DNA of 64,000 nt. Origin: a virus (taxonomy: Duplodnaviria > Heunggongvirae > Uroviricota > Caudoviricetes). Positions 40,177 to 49,719 of the stretch are shown here, one piece after another. Under the pieces are notes generated by a model. It saw only the letters and a program-made list of their open reading frames with translations. It ran no database searches and had not been told where the DNA came from. The stretch is taken from the IMG/VR virus record IMGVR_UViG_3300017747_005082, positions 9,618-73,617 of that record; one strand, given 5' to 3'. Every line of letters starts with the position of its first letter. Within the stretch, counting starts at the first letter, position 1. The position numbers were made by a program, and so were the translations under genes.

Positions 40177-40514
40177 GATAATGTTAATTTTAATTTTTTA
40201 AATAATTGTTTGTGTAATTCTGATGGAAGTGATTCAATAGCAATAGCTGTTAATTGATTACCTATATCAGGTTCTAAAAACACACTATATTTAATTTTAA
40301 GTTCATCTAATTTTGATCTTAAGATCTCAATTTTGAACTCTGATTCTTCCAAACAGCATAAATAATTACTTTTAAATTGCCATTCTTTAAATTCATGATA
40401 ATACTTTACAGCAAAATCAGCTAACGCATGAGCGGATTGTACTACCTTATAACCAGGTGTTAAATCCTTTCTTGTAACAATAGTGATAAAATCACCTTCT
40501 TTAATCTACTTCAT
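40173..40514 (-). CDS. peptidyl-tRNA hydrolase 2 (Pth2)-like protein with in-frame TAG at codon 3
   Basis: Hand translation MK*IKEGDFITIVTRKDLTPGYKVVQSAHALADF...FLEPDIGNQLTAIAI...; 114 codons, TAG at 40506-40508; absent from the ORF track. Confidence 0.8.
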
Positions 40515-40537
40515 AATAAAAATTATTTAATTAGTAG

Positions 40538-40611
40538 TGATTTTAATGGGACTCGAACCCATAACCTTCAGTTTTAGAGACTGCTGCTCTTACCAATTGA
40601 GCTATAAAACC
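40538..40611 (-). tRNA. amber suppressor tRNA (anticodon CTA)
   Basis: Cloverleaf GGTTTTA/TAAAATC, D-arm GCTC/GAGC, loop CTCTAAA, T-arm ATGGG-TTCGAGT-CCCAT. Confidence 0.9.
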
Positions 40612-40831: not shown

Positions 40832-40901
40832 TAGCGGTCGCAGGAATCGAACCTGACCTTAGGGTTATGAGCCCTTCGTGCTACCCTTACACTACCCCGC
40901 G
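40832..40901 (-). tRNA. initiator-like tRNA-Met (CAT), atypical
   Basis: CGCGGGG start, GGG/CCC anticodon stem, mismatch at 1:72; shortened variable/T region. Confidence 0.7.
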
Positions 40902-42234: not shown

Positions 42235-42738
42235 TTAAAAAAGTAAATATTTTTCCCAACTTTTAGGTAAATTATCTATACCTTTTAACAACATAAGATA
42301 ATGTGGACGTTTTGGTTGAGGAATTTCTTTACCATATTCTGTTAAAGTTAAATCCGCTTTTTCACTATTACATTTTTTACATGCTGTAACTACATTTTCA
42401 AAAGTATTCTGACCACCTTTTGATGTTGGATGAACATGATCTAATGTTAAAGTTTTTTTATTATCACAACCACAATAAACACATTCAAAATTATCTCTTT
42501 TAAATACATTTTCTCTTGAAAATGGAACTTTTTGAAAAGGTTGATTTACATATTTAAAAACTCTAATAACTGATGGTTTTTTAATATCTAATTCAGGATT
42601 AACTAGTTTAAAGCTCTCGTCATGTTCCTGAATTACTTCAGCATTTCCTTTATAGGAAATAACAAAGGCTCTTTCTGTTGAGATAATACTTCTAGCTATA
42701 TAACTTGAATCTATTACTAGTGTTTTTCTATTATTCAT
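42235..42738 (-). CDS. HNH endonuclease (McrA-like)
   Basis: RDNFECVYCG...TLDHVHP..KGG...ENVVTACKKCN. Confidence 0.9.
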   Translation of the reverse strand: MNNRKTLVIDSSYIARSIISTERAFVISYKGNAEVIQEHDESFKLVNPELDIKKPSVIRVFKYVNQPFQKVPFSRENVFKRDNFECVYCGCDNKKTLTLDHVHPTSKGGQNTFENVVTACKKCNSEKADLTLTEYGKEIPQPKRPHYLMLLKGIDNLPKSWEKYLLF

Positions 42739-43131: not shown

Positions 43132-43138
43132 ATTTTTG

Positions 43139-43211
43139 AACCCCCATTCAGATTCGAACTGAAATAAAATATCTTAGAAGGATATGGCATTTCCATTTAT
43201 GCTACAGGGGC
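43139..43211 (-). tRNA. tRNA-Arg (TCT)
   Basis: Cloverleaf, loop CTTCTAA. Confidence 0.85.
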
Positions 43212-43490
43212 AAATTTACCTAGATTTCGTTCTAGGAAGACGTAAATAATAAATTCCTGGAACCTATTATTTAACAGCTTATTAAGCCGCTATTGCAAAG
43301 TTGTCCTTTACGTTTATATTAATCTCTATCTATTACTTAATCTAATGTCAAAGCCATTCCTCCCCTTATACAGTAGAGATAACTATAAGTTATCTCAACA
43401 CCCTAAAATACACATGGTATAAGGGCTTAGTGGAGAGGCTGGGTTTCGAACCCAGGTCCATTAAAATGTTAATAAACGTCAACAATTAAT
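43212..43490 (-). ncRNA. ssrA: circularly permuted (two-piece) tmRNA
   Basis: 3' piece GAC-CTGGG-TTCGAAA-CCCAG-CCTCTCC-A (to 43431) precedes 5' piece GGGGAGG-AATGGCTTT-GAC (from 43365); G3:U70; tag frame 43282-43311 VKDNFAIAA* TAA TAA; outer ends approximate. Confidence 0.88.
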
Positions 43491-43495
43491 ACTTG

Positions 43496-43570
43496 TGCAC
43501 CAACGAGGATTCGAACCCACGATATCTCTTAGTCCGTAGCTAAGTGTTTTTCCATTTAAACTATAAGTGC
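43496..43570 (-). tRNA. tRNA-Arg (ACG)
   Basis: Cloverleaf, loop CTACGGA. Confidence 0.85.
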
Positions 43571-45099: not shown

Positions 45100-45747
45100 T
45101 TATTTTTTAATATTTCTTCCTTTATAAGTAGGTGTTTGGGAATGACAATTTGGGCATAATATTTTTAAATTTTCTAATAAATTATTTGAAGAATTACCAT
45201 CTATATGCTCTAAATCAAATGAAATTATTTTATTATTCCATTCTTTAATTCCACAATCTTCACATTGTTCTATTTTCAATCCTTCTCTATATAAATATCT
45301 TTTTAAACATCCAGTAAATGAATTATAATATTTATTTTCAATAAATTCTTCTCCTTTTAATAGTTTAGAAAAATCTCTAAATTTCCCTCTCCCAGATTTT
45401 TGTAATTTTTTATTTTTTATATAATTTAAATTATATTTATTGAATAATAATATTATATATGGTTTTGAAATTTTATAAATTTTATTTATCTTATAAATAG
45501 AATAGTTTAATTTTATTACTTCATCTAAAAATGTTTTTTCATCTTTAAATCCTAATTTTTTTAATATTTCCCAATAATCTATTGGTAATTTTTTTGGTTT
45601 AGATTTATTCCTTTTTTTGGTTTTGGGGTAATCTTTTAGATAATATCCTACAGTACCCTTTCCAATTTGTAAAATTTCACAAATTTGAGGTATAGTTTTT
45701 AATTCTTTCCTCAAATCCCAAATCATTTCTTTCCTTTCTAAATTCAT
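45100..45747 (-). CDS. HNH homing-endonuclease-like protein with N-terminal HTH
   Basis: CEDCG...DLEHIDGNSSNN.LENLKILCPNCHSQT. Confidence 0.85.
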   Translation of the reverse strand: MNLERKEMIWDLRKELKTIPQICEILQIGKGTVGYYLKDYPKTKKRNKSKPKKLPIDYWEILKKLGFKDEKTFLDEVIKLNYSIYKINKIYKISKPYIILLFNKYNLNYIKNKKLQKSGRGKFRDFSKLLKGEEFIENKYYNSFTGCLKRYLYREGLKIEQCEDCGIKEWNNKIISFDLEHIDGNSSNNLLENLKILCPNCHSQTPTYKGRNIKK

Positions 45748-49552: not shown

Positions 49553-49719
49553 TGATAATGACAGGATTCGAACCTGTAATTAGGATTTGCTTTTACCCGC
49601 TCTTGATTATCTGCTGACGGCCCACAACAAGTACATCCTATTAATTGTGGTGTTTTACTGTTATTCATTATCTAGCTCAAAGCTACTACAGTCAGCGTCT
49701 ACCATTCCGCCACATTACC
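49553..49719 (-). ncRNA. tRNA-like RNA with greatly expanded anticodon and variable regions (167 nt)
   Basis: GGTAATG/CATTATC acceptor, Leu-type D-arm, ACAGG-TTCGAAT-CCTGT T-arm; GCTGAC/GTCAGC stem encloses two sub-hairpins. Confidence 0.75.

What the first reader, a model, noticed from the sequence alone, without database searches (positions are those of the whole stretch)
43212..43490. Circularly permuted two-piece tmRNA in a probable Bacteroidota phage
Seen: the acceptor piece (GAC-T-arm-CCTCTCC-A) precedes a 65-nt intervening segment (43366-43430, with a perfect 9-bp hairpin). The coding piece follows: GGGGAGG with G3:U70, CATTA/TAATG P2 pairing, tag frame (A)VKDNFAIAA followed by TAA TAA in a hairpin, and a downstream AGGAA/TTCCT pseudoknot. 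No smpB and no encoded CCA in the window. Established: two-piece tmRNAs are known from Alphaproteobacteria, some cyanobacteria, some Betaproteobacteria and jakobid mitochondria, and phage tmRNAs are known. Inference: an independent permutation in a phage, giving ribosome rescue alongside Pth2.
Basis: partly seen in the sequence, partly recalled or inferred. Interest (0 to 1): 0.8.

Follow-up and report, generated by a model that had tools for sequence, protein, structure and literature searches.

The report
Compact two-piece tmRNA gene in phage
A 180-kb freshwater T4-like phage carries, inside its tRNA gene cluster, a real "split" gene for tmRNA (the RNA that rescues stalled ribosomes); split tmRNAs in phages are already known, but this one belongs to an unusually small, Bacteroidota-type lineage that I found described in no paper.

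Summary
On the minus strand, 43212-43494 holds a circularly permuted tmRNA gene. It scores 60 bits against Rfam RF04321 (threshold 47). It has a 7-bp acceptor stem with G3:U70 and A73, a T arm, a 65-nt spacer and a three-part helix 2. The tag is (A)VKDNFAIAA, followed by UAA UAA in a hairpin.

Default ARAGORN misses it. Sister phages keep the gene in the same tRNA-Arg / tmRNA / tRNA-Arg slot, with compensatory changes.

It is not a private event. The pattern scans found about 200 IMG/VR contigs with the same compact design. Two unrelated, cultured Flavobacteriia phages carry copies already annotated as tmRNA: Maribacter phage Panino and Chryseobacterium phage MA9V-3.

None of the 23 family members tested reaches the alpha, beta or cyano model thresholds. 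The tRNA-like domain and first helix resemble one-piece tmRNAs of Bacteroidota. More distant relatives of this phage carry one-piece tmRNAs. An origin separate from the three known permuted lineages is therefore plausible but unproven.

The phage genome has no SmpB, no CCA-adding enzyme and no encoded CCA. Host factors are needed. No RNA data were found.

Verdict: a real gene and a new variant of a known kind. Earlier scan notes found this lineage on other DNA.

The parts
43495..43570 (-). Upstream tRNA-Arg(ACG). Its 3' end probably sets the 5' end of the acceptor piece.
   Evidence: ARAGORN and Rfam. The distance from the tRNA end to the acceptor discriminator is 64 nt in all 5 first-found copies, and 58-65 nt in all 16 family members that have an upstream tRNA.
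43431..43494 (-). Acceptor piece, 64 nt. Helix-2 3' strands lie at 43484-43492, 43470-43477 and 43459-43465. The T arm is 43439-43455, the acceptor 3' strand 43432-43438 and discriminator A 43431. CCA is not encoded (A-CUA follows).
   Evidence: Rfam alignment, cofold and pair tables.
43366..43430 (-). Intervening segment, 65 nt, removed on maturation. It contains a perfect 9-bp hairpin at 43376-43396 and no meaningful ORF.
   Evidence: Sequence. Spacer length and sequence are not conserved among relatives (20, 60, 65, 79 and 170 nt).
43212..43365 (-). Coding piece, at most 154 nt. Acceptor 5' strand: 43359-43365. D-loop analogue AAUGGCUUUGA: 43348-43358. Helix-2 5' strands: 43316-43347.
   Evidence: The resume codon is at position +55, which leaves no room for pseudoknot 1.
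43279..43311 (-). Tag reading frame. Resume codon GUA at 43309-43311, VKDNFAIAA, then UAA UAA at 43279-43284.
   Evidence: Sister copies encode VKDNFAIAA, VKDNFAYAA, VKDNFAFAA, ANDKFALAA and ANDNFALAA, with synonymous changes in the Ala codons.
43274..43290 (-). Stop-codon hairpin (helix 5 equivalent).
   Evidence: Cofold. This matches the placement of the stop codon in the RF00023 consensus.
43219..43273 (-). Two 3' hairpins of the coding piece, at 43243-43273 and 43219-43236. The second has the conserved loop ACGAAAU.
   Evidence: Cofold. Stems covary in G001, L315 and L234: CCUAGA/UCUAGG, UUCGGA/UCCGAA, CCUGAA/UUCAGG.
43138..43211 (-). Downstream tRNA-Arg(UCU). RNase P cleavage at its 5' end would release the 3' end of the coding piece.
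   Evidence: G001 and G002 have the same tRNA-Arg / tmRNA / tRNA-Arg order.
40185..40484 (-). Pth2-like peptidyl-tRNA hydrolase gene in the same tRNA island (context only, not part of the tmRNA).
   Evidence: PF01981, 25.4 bits against a cut-off of 23.

Best explanation
This is a working gene for a compact two-piece tmRNA.

Shown: the gene order is 3' tRNA-like half, spacer, 5' tRNA-like half plus tag message. The two halves can pair into an alanine-type acceptor stem (G3:U70, A73), a T arm and a three-part helix 2. A 9-codon tag ending in IAA is followed by two stop codons in a hairpin. The design is kept, with compensatory base changes, in sister phages and in a family of about 200 phage contigs.

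Inferred mechanism: the gene is transcribed as part of the minus-strand tRNA array and cut out by the host's tRNA-processing enzymes alone. A 3' tRNA-processing enzyme (RNase Z, or exonucleases) frees tRNA-Arg(ACG) and so creates the 5' end of the 64-nt acceptor piece. The same activity trims the acceptor piece after A73, and the host CCA-adding enzyme completes it. RNase P cuts before G1 of the coding piece and before tRNA-Arg(UCU).

The two pieces stay together by base pairing. Host AlaRS charges the RNA, and host SmpB and EF-Tu deliver it to stalled ribosomes. Translation resumes at GUA and adds A-VKDNFAIAA, a degradation tag like the host's.

The likely benefit is to keep ribosomes available in infected Bacteroidota cells, alongside the phage's 25 tRNAs and Pth2.
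For: - Rfam RF04321 scores 60 bits against a threshold of 47.
- All 12 pairs of the tRNA-like domain are canonical in 5 copies, with two-sided changes at 6 of them.
- In 169 distinct family sequences, all four Watson-Crick pair types occur at acceptor pairs 5 and 6 and at T-stem pairs 1 and 2. G3:U70 and A73 are invariant.
- The first part of helix 2 covaries, for example CAGCAAG/CUUGUUUG against CACAAUG/CAUUGUUG.
- The tag is conserved at the amino-acid level with synonymous changes.
- The gene sits in the same tRNA-Arg / tmRNA / tRNA-Arg slot in G001 and G002.
- The tRNA-to-discriminator spacing is constant at 58-65 nt.
- The acceptor 3' flank (A-C-U/A-A) looks like that of all 25 phage tRNA genes, none of which encodes CCA.
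- Bacteroidota tmRNA genes mostly lack encoded CCA as well.
- Cultured Flavobacteriia phages carry copies that ARAGORN calls as permuted tmRNA.
Against: - There is no expression or processing data. No RNA run holds the locus.
- The complete phage genome has no SmpB and no CCA-adding enzyme, so function depends wholly on an unknown host.
- There are no pseudoknots, and the resume codon is GUA rather than the usual GCN.
- The resume codon lies in a predicted 6-bp hairpin.
- Default ARAGORN rejects the gene.
- The upper part of helix 2 rests on few sequences.
Confidence: 0.8

Rival explanations
1. Rival on origin. The gene is not a separate permutation. It descends by horizontal transfer from one of the three known two-piece lineages, most likely the betaproteobacterial one, and was then stripped of its pseudoknots in phages.
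For: Among the lineage models, the best partial match is beta_tmRNA for 22 of the 23 family members tested (29-53 bits). The family moves between unrelated phages. The tRNA-like domain is too short and too conserved to carry much phylogenetic signal.
Against: None of the 23 members tested reaches the thresholds of beta (84), alpha (50) or cyano, and the beta match is essentially the tRNA-like domain alone. The family shares the exact motifs GGUUUUGACAGC and CUUGUUUGGAC with a subset of Bacteroidota one-piece tmRNAs: 34/169 and 9/169 family sequences, 10/54 and 9/54 Bacteroidota loci, 0/29 alpha. CCA is not encoded in any of the copies examined individually (WIN, G001, G002, G024, G025, Panino, MA9V-3), though 17 of 169 family sequences contain a CCACCA string, whereas the permuted consensus and the alpha genes encode it. 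Relatives of this phage carry one-piece tmRNAs. Some family members keep a GGUGGUGGA element, which otherwise turned up only in those phage one-piece tmRNAs among the sequences searched.
Confidence: 0.35
2. Rival on function. The RNA acts mainly as a decoy that soaks up host SmpB or AlaRS and shuts down host trans-translation, as proposed for the tRNA-like-domain-only RNA of mycobacteriophage DS6A. It would not act as a tagging tmRNA.
For: Phage DS6A carries such an RNA, and a similar molecule inhibits tmRNA in E. coli (PMC4131195, PMC11915505). The phage has no SmpB of its own. The RNA is stripped of pseudoknots.
Against: The tag frame, its hydrophobic-AA end, the double stop codon and the stop-codon hairpin are all conserved. 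Synonymous changes occur in the subgroup. Family-wide, tags are mostly 9-17 codons long and the commonest end in AA. A decoy would not need any of these.
Confidence: 0.1
3. The region is a decaying or chance tRNA-like remnant, for example an attachment-site fragment of a host ssrA gene, with no function.
For: Phages often carry 3' fragments of ssrA as attachment sites. RF04321 gave two sub-threshold false positives at ordinary tmRNA genes.
Against: Both halves, helix 2 and the tag are complete and covary. The slot is conserved in sister genomes. No bacterial species genome holds the same 3' half.
Confidence: 0.03

Closest known systems
Phage-encoded two-piece tmRNAs of aquatic phages (Methylophilales phage Melnitz, Pelagibacter phages HTVC008M and Mosig, cyanophages, Caulobacter phiCbK-like phages; PMC9004378)
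   Same: A circularly permuted ssrA gene carried by a large phage, with no phage SmpB and a presumed role in keeping translation going. HTVC008M was used as a control here and scores 90.6 bits on RF04321.
   Different: Those genes belong to recognised host-type lineages. HTVC008M reaches the alpha_tmRNA threshold with 83.8 bits against 50. It encodes CCA and places its tag about 100 nt into the coding piece. The window's gene reaches no lineage threshold, has no pseudoknot 1 (tag at +55), encodes no CCA, and is embedded between two tRNA genes.
Two-piece tmRNA genes already annotated in cultured Flavobacteriia phages: Maribacter phage Panino (PP540027) and Chryseobacterium phage MA9V-3 (PV245944)
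   Same: The same compact permuted design, which ARAGORN calls permuted. In Panino the acceptor 5' region is nearly the same as in G024. Panino's gene also lies in a tRNA array, 64 nt from the end of tRNA-Asp.
   Different: These are different phage types (77 and 103 kb, not T4-like), with longer tags (GKVMNVSFAPTVRQFA, GNVIDINKYVAKLEVAA). They appear only as feature lines in the records. I found no paper that discusses them.
Alpha-, beta- and cyanobacterial two-piece tmRNAs (Rfam RF01849, RF01850, RF01851; merged model RF04321; Keiler et al. 2000, Sharkady and Williams 2004 as cited in PMC11915505)
   Same: The same permuted gene order. The acceptor stem is formed in trans, and helix 2 holds the two pieces together. 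Maturation by tRNA-processing enzymes is stated in PMC11915505.
   Different: Sampled alphaproteobacterial genes have a GGCAGUA T loop, an AUCGAC D-loop, a pseudoknot 1 region and an encoded CCA. They score 89-164 bits on RF04321. The phage family scores 41-78 bits and fails all three lineage models.
One-piece tmRNAs of Bacteroidota and of related T4-like phages (G006, G007, G008)
   Same: A UUUGAC/AUUGAY D-loop, an AGCAAG/CUUGUUUGGAC first helix, no encoded CCA in most genes examined, an AAUAAAC-type context before the resume codon, and tags ending in YALAA, FAMAA or similar.
   Different: Those genes are collinear, 350-500 nt long, and have four pseudoknot regions.

Membership tests
tmRNA, circularly permuted (two-piece) form, Rfam RF04321 | Score at or above the curated gathering threshold of the family model | tested here: met
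   60.0 bits against 47, full model 1-213, E = 3.9e-9.
tmRNA, circularly permuted (two-piece) form, Rfam RF04321 | Permuted gene order: the T arm plus acceptor 3' strand lie upstream of the acceptor 5' strand, with a spacer between them | tested here: met
   43431-43455, then a 65-nt spacer, then 43359-43365.
tmRNA, circularly permuted (two-piece) form, Rfam RF04321 | Alanine identity: a 7-bp acceptor stem with G3:U70 and discriminator A73 | tested here: met
   GGGGAGG/CCUCUCC-A. Invariant in 169 family sequences, although the scan pattern fixed pairs 1-3.
tmRNA, circularly permuted (two-piece) form, Rfam RF04321 | Helix 2 between the 5' part of the acceptor piece and the coding piece just after the D-loop analogue | tested here: met
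   The cofold gives three stacked helices. The first covaries across the family. The upper two are supported only in the close subgroup.
tmRNA, circularly permuted (two-piece) form, Rfam RF04321 | Tag reading frame with a resume codon, a hydrophobic-Ala-Ala end and a stop codon in a hairpin | tested here: met
   GUA AAG GAC AAC UUU GCA AUA GCG GCU UAA UAA. Conserved in relatives.
tmRNA, circularly permuted (two-piece) form, Rfam RF04321 | Transcript is cut into two stable pieces, gains CCA and is charged with alanine | not testable with these tools
   No RNA run holds the locus. CCA is not encoded and the phage has no CCA-adding enzyme.
tmRNA, circularly permuted (two-piece) form, Rfam RF04321 | Works with SmpB | not testable with these tools
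   No SmpB in the complete phage genome. A host protein would be needed. The Bacteroides control genome has SmpB.
Canonical tmRNA architecture | Pseudoknot 1 before the tag and pseudoknots 2-4 after it | tested here: not met
   The resume codon is at +55, and all 35 nt after the D-loop are used by helix 2. Only simple hairpins lie downstream. In the family, the resume codon is at +57 to +68 in 125 of 132 cases. Pseudoknots are typical of tmRNA but not strictly defining.
Alpha (RF01849), beta (RF01850) or cyano (RF01851) two-piece lineages | Reaches the lineage model's gathering score | tested here: not met
   The window's best is beta_tmRNA at 29.4 bits against 84, covering the tRNA-like domain only. 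All 20 sampled family members plus G024 and G025 also fail. Control HTVC008M passes alpha with 83.8 against 50.
Compact two-piece tmRNA family of Bacteroidota phages (defined here and in earlier scan notes; not found in the literature) | 64-nt acceptor piece, UUUGA D-loop, tag at about +55 to +68, no encoded CCA in the copies examined individually, carried by phages of Bacteroidota | tested here: met
   The window meets all of these. Nearest neighbours are G002/L292, L315, G001 and L234. Cultured-host links are Maribacter and Chryseobacterium phages.

The most novel reading that the evidence does not exclude
The compact phage family that includes this gene is a fourth, independent origin of circularly permuted tmRNA. 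On this reading it derives from a Bacteroidota-type one-piece tmRNA rather than from the alpha, beta or cyano lineages. It exists only in phages: none was found in 151 sampled Bacteroidota genomes. It has lost all pseudoknots. In tRNA-array copies like this one, it is released entirely by tRNA-processing cuts, so it needs neither its own promoter nor its own terminator.
Probability: 0.45. Interest if true: 0.6.

Novelty: new variant of a known kind. Interest (0 to 1): 0.42.

Why it matters
Circular permutation of tmRNA is a textbook case of RNA gene rearrangement. It is thought to have happened three times in bacteria, and the 2025 tmRNA database sorts every permuted gene into alpha, beta or cyano.

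A phage-borne, Bacteroidota-type lineage would add a further origin. It would also show how far tmRNA can be reduced: about 215 nt in two pieces, with no pseudoknots. That makes it a natural minimal model for trans-translation.

The fixed 64-nt spacing from an upstream tRNA suggests a simple way to mature a two-piece RNA with RNase Z and RNase P alone.

There is a practical point too. Default ARAGORN misses this copy and about a third of the family (69 of 202), so phage annotation pipelines under-report these genes.

For phage biology, it adds to the evidence that large Bacteroidota phages bring a whole translation-maintenance kit: tRNAs, a suppressor tRNA, Pth2 and tmRNA.

Tried and rejected
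- BLASTN of the window's gene against 50,697 phage records found no match, and megablast of 24 kb of the window also found none. The gene is too divergent. Family members did hit Flavobacteriia phages later.
- Exact 3'-half pattern: 3 viral contigs, 1 metagenome contig that duplicates one of them, and 0 of about 185,000 species genomes.
- The 5'-half pattern added one chance match inside a gene, L023. A looser T-arm pattern returned mostly tRNAs.
- Expression: no RNA holder is listed for the locus.
- The 'Permuted' entry for Cellulophaga phage phi4:1 in Table S1 of PMC9004378 was not reproduced. RF04321 gives only 15.6 bits, in a coding region.
- Two sub-threshold RF04321 hits in Bacteroidota genomes turned out to be the 5' halves of ordinary one-piece tmRNAs.
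- The proposed AGGAA/UUCCU pseudoknot is not conserved.
- I proposed a long-range pairing of the conserved acceptor-piece motif UUGACGU with ACGUC in the coding-piece tail. It is present in WIN, G001, G024 and L315. It is not enriched family-wide (observed mean 3.25, partner-shuffled 3.71), and a change in L234 is not compensated.
- In-place permutation in this phage's own lineage is not supported. The one-piece genes of G006, G007 and G008 sit at other places, and the window's tRNA-like domain is closer to that of an unrelated 68-kb phage than to those of its sisters.
- My first script to parse alphaproteobacterial genes failed because their T loop is not UUCGA. I read them directly instead.

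Full report
WHAT IS THERE

The feature lies on the minus strand, as does every predicted ORF of at least 200 codons in this genome. The window is part of a complete 180,524-bp virus record with direct terminal repeats and 26% G+C. The only sequencing run that holds it is a freshwater metagenome. The phage is T4-like: it has a Gp23 capsid, a Gp20 portal, a T4-type terminase and a tail sheath.

Rfam's merged model for permuted tmRNA (RF04321) matches 43282-43477(-) at 60.0 bits. The gathering score is 47, and E = 3.9e-9 for the window. Default ARAGORN finds nothing. With relaxed thresholds, its single tmRNA call in the whole genome is this locus, with the same two tRNA-like halves but a wrong tag.

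Read 5' to 3' on the minus strand, the region holds:
- tRNA-Arg(ACG);
- a 64-nt acceptor piece, 43494-43431;
- a 65-nt spacer with a perfect 9-bp hairpin;
- a coding piece from G1 at 43365;
- tRNA-Arg(UCU), beginning at 43211.

STRUCTURE

The two pieces pair as GGGGAGG/CCUCUCC, with G3:U70 and discriminator A. The T arm is CUGGG-UUCGAAA-CCCAG.

An RNA cofold of the two pieces gives the acceptor stem, the T arm and three stacked helix-2 segments: UUUAAUG/CAUUAGA, then two A/U-rich helices. These use all 35 nt between the D-loop analogue and the resume codon, so there is no room for pseudoknot 1.

The resume codon GUA is at +55. The tag is VKDNFAIAA, followed by UAA UAA inside a 7-bp hairpin, as in standard tmRNA helix 5. 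Two further hairpins close the coding piece.

CCA is not encoded: A-CUA follows the acceptor stem. The same is true of all 25 phage tRNA genes, which nearly all show discriminator-C-A/U-A.

IS IT CONSERVED?

Sister phages G002 and G001 have capsid proteins 90% and 92% identical to the window's. They keep the gene in the same tRNA-Arg / tmRNA / tRNA-Arg slot. Their acceptor stems are GGGGCUG/CAGCUCC and GGGGAUG/CAUCUCC. Their T stems are GAGAG/CUCUC and CCGGU/ACCGG. Their spacers are 20 and 79 nt, and their tags are VKDNFAIAA and VKDNFAYAA.

Exact-pattern scans also found the design elsewhere. One is a complete 68-kb phage with no T4-like capsid (G024). Two more are fragments of another phage, identical across the tmRNA region (G025 and G026).

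A gapped pattern for a permuted tRNA-like domain with a UUUGA D-loop returned 222 viral stretches. Of these, 202 have fully paired stems and 169 are distinct. Across them:
- acceptor pairs 5 and 6 and T-stem pairs 1 and 2 show all four Watson-Crick pair types;
- G3:U70 and A73 never vary, although the scan pattern itself fixed pairs 1-3;
- the first helix-2 segment covaries;
- the resume codon is at +57 to +68 in 125 of 132 cases;
- tags are mostly 10-16 residues long, and the commonest tags listed end in AA or a similar hydrophobic pair.

Default ARAGORN of the 202. The nearest neighbours of the window's gene are G002/L292, L315, G001 and L234. Their tags form a series: VKDNFA(I/Y/F)AA, ANDKFALAA, ANDNFALAA. 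Their last hairpin covaries around a fixed ACGAAAU loop.

HOST AND RELATIVES

The nearest isolate is Flavobacterium phage vB_FspM_immuto, at 53% identity for both capsid and terminase. Microcystis phage Mel-JY01, a 484-kb uncultured phage and Rhodothermus phage RM378 follow. None of these has a permuted tmRNA.

BLASTN with family members hits only phages of Flavobacteriia. These are Cellulophaga phages phi38:1, phi40:1 and Calle, Chryseobacterium phage MA9V-3, and Maribacter phage Panino. The matched regions in Calle, MA9V-3 and Panino are already annotated as tmRNA.

ARAGORN calls the Panino and MA9V-3 genes permuted. Panino's copy sits in a tRNA array, 64 nt from the end of tRNA-Asp.

The phage's ribonucleotide reductase is closest to proteins of Chitinophagales, Saprospiraceae and other Bacteroidota (50-58%), and also to some Pelagibacterales assemblies (52-53%).

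So 'Bacteroidota phage' is well supported for the family and likely for this phage.

WHICH LINEAGE, AND WAS THE PERMUTATION INDEPENDENT?

The lineage-specific Rfam models do not recognise the gene. For the window, the best is beta_tmRNA at 29.4 bits against a threshold of 84, covering the tRNA-like domain only. G024, G025 and all 20 sampled family members also fail. As a control, Pelagibacter phage HTVC008M passes alpha_tmRNA with 83.8 bits against 50.

Sampled alphaproteobacterial genes differ clearly. They have a GGCAGUA T loop, an AUCGAC D-loop, a pseudoknot 1 region and an encoded CCA, and they score 89-164 bits on RF04321. The tally of 39 of 41 genomes includes one unpublished genome, G221.

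In Bacteroidota, 144 of 151 sampled genomes have a standard tmRNA and none has a true permuted one. A subset of those one-piece genes shares GGUUUUGACAGC(AAG) and CUUGUUUGGAC with the phage family:

| Motif | Phage family | Bacteroidota one-piece | Alpha two-piece |
|---|---|---|---|
| UUUUGACAGC | 34/169 | 10/54 | 0/29 |
| CUUGUUUGGAC | 9/169 | 9/54 | 0/29 |

These genes mostly lack an encoded CCA as well.

More distant T4-like relatives (G006, G007 and G008; capsid about 62% identical) carry one-piece tmRNAs. In G006 the gene heads the tRNA array.

One family member, G025, has in its 170-nt spacer a 31-nt match to the pseudoknot region of G007's one-piece tmRNA (z = 4.9). The short-spacer subgroup keeps the same GGUGGUGGA element downstream of the tag. 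I did not find that element in the six Bacteroidota bacterial tmRNAs I searched for it.

Together this favours derivation from a Bacteroidota-type one-piece tmRNA, which would make the family a further independent permutation. The case is not closed, for four reasons:
- The tRNA-like domain is short and generally conserved.
- HTVC008M also has a UUUGAC D-loop.
- I had no beta or cyano sequences, only their Rfam models.
- Mimicry of the host's tRNA-like domain could produce the same likeness.

The event did not happen in this phage. The window's tRNA-like domain is nearly identical to that of the unrelated phage G024, while its tag matches its sisters'. This suggests exchange among phages that share hosts.

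HOW IT PROBABLY WORKS (INFERENCE)

The distance from the upstream tRNA to the acceptor discriminator is fixed: 64 nt in five copies, and 58-65 nt in all 16 further tRNA-linked family members. The 3' flank is tRNA-like.

This fits release of both pieces by the host's tRNA-processing enzymes, followed by CCA addition, alanylation and use with host SmpB. The complete phage genome has neither SmpB nor a CCA-adding enzyme.

A Pth2-like gene lies 2.7 kb away in the same RNA island.

WHAT IS KNOWN

- Phage tmRNAs have been recorded since the mycobacteriophages (PMC4131195).
- Huge phages carry tmRNA and SmpB (PMC7162821).
- Two-piece tmRNAs in phages are published. PMC9004378 reports 53 permuted tmRNA structures among phage genomes in the INPHARED database, mostly marine.
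- The 2025 tmRNA database lists 79 phage sequences and sorts all permuted genes into alpha, beta or cyano (PMC11915505).
- I found no paper on a compact Bacteroidota-phage lineage.
- Earlier notes of this scan reached the same reading on other DNA.

VERDICT

This is a genuine, probably functional two-piece tmRNA gene. It is a new variant of a known kind, and of moderate interest.

Noticed in passing
L021:751-920 (G025, IMGVR_UViG_3300017722_004904), spacer of its two-piece tmRNA: The 170-nt spacer holds a 31-nt stretch ending in AAGUGGUGGA that matches the pseudoknot region of the one-piece tmRNA of phage G007 (z = 4.9). Family members with short spacers keep GGUGGUGGA about 142 nt into the coding piece. 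It may be a relic of the one-piece ancestor, but its position inside a spacer is unexplained.
   Followed up: partly
window 43476-43482 (-) and 43240-43244 (-): The motif UUGACGU lies in the internal loop of helix 2 and is invariant in the five first-found copies. It is complementary to ACGUC in the coding-piece tail, with 7-8 nt of complementarity in G024 and L315. The pairing is not enriched across the whole family, and a change in L234 is not compensated.
   Followed up: partly
window 43225-43230 (-); family coding pieces: The hexamer ACGAAA occurs downstream of the tag in 38 of 165 family members, against 10.8 expected from shuffles (maximum 19). In the window it forms the loop of the last hairpin. 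Its role is unknown.
   Followed up: partly
window 49553-49719 (-) and 40833-40900 (-): Two Rfam tRNA hits that ARAGORN does not call. One spans 167 nt (33.8 bits) and may be an interrupted or tRNA-like RNA. The other is 68 nt (38.9 bits).
   Followed up: no
window 40537-40611 (-) and 40185-40484 (-): A tRNA with anticodon CUA (amber suppressor, labelled tRNA-Pyl by ARAGORN) lies just upstream of the Pth2-like gene. The genome otherwise reads well in the standard code: stop-codon use among ORFs of at least 100 codons is 142 TAA, 28 TGA and 17 TAG.
   Followed up: no
window 42235-42738 (-) and 45100-45747 (-): Two HNH endonuclease genes are inserted within the tRNA array.
   Followed up: no
L200:9609-10103 (-) (G006, IMGVR_UViG_3300008262_000042): A 495-nt one-piece tmRNA starts with GGGCCUG and encodes CCA. 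ARAGORN misses it. It sits immediately upstream of a 24-tRNA array in a complete 180-kb relative. Its tag is 26 residues long and ends in VAVAA.
   Followed up: partly
L256:3364-3481 (-) and L256:1311-1487 (-) (IMGVR_UViG_3300036764_000079): A contig carrying a family tmRNA also has a Hatchet ribozyme (81 bits against a threshold of 51) and a sub-threshold RAGATH-22 match (59 bits).
   Followed up: no
L226:1501-1713 and L227:1501-1743 (two Bacteroidota genomes): RF04321 gives about 40 bits across its full length at ordinary one-piece tmRNA genes. The match is their 5' half plus unrelated upstream sequence. This is a source of false 'permuted' calls just under the threshold.
   Followed up: yes
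PMC11915505 Supplementary Table S2, Bacteroidota row: The tmRNA database lists 18 alpha-, 23 beta- and 7 cyano-type permuted tmRNAs under Bacteroidota genomes. These may be phage contigs of the compact family binned into metagenome-assembled genomes. I could not check this.
   Followed up: no
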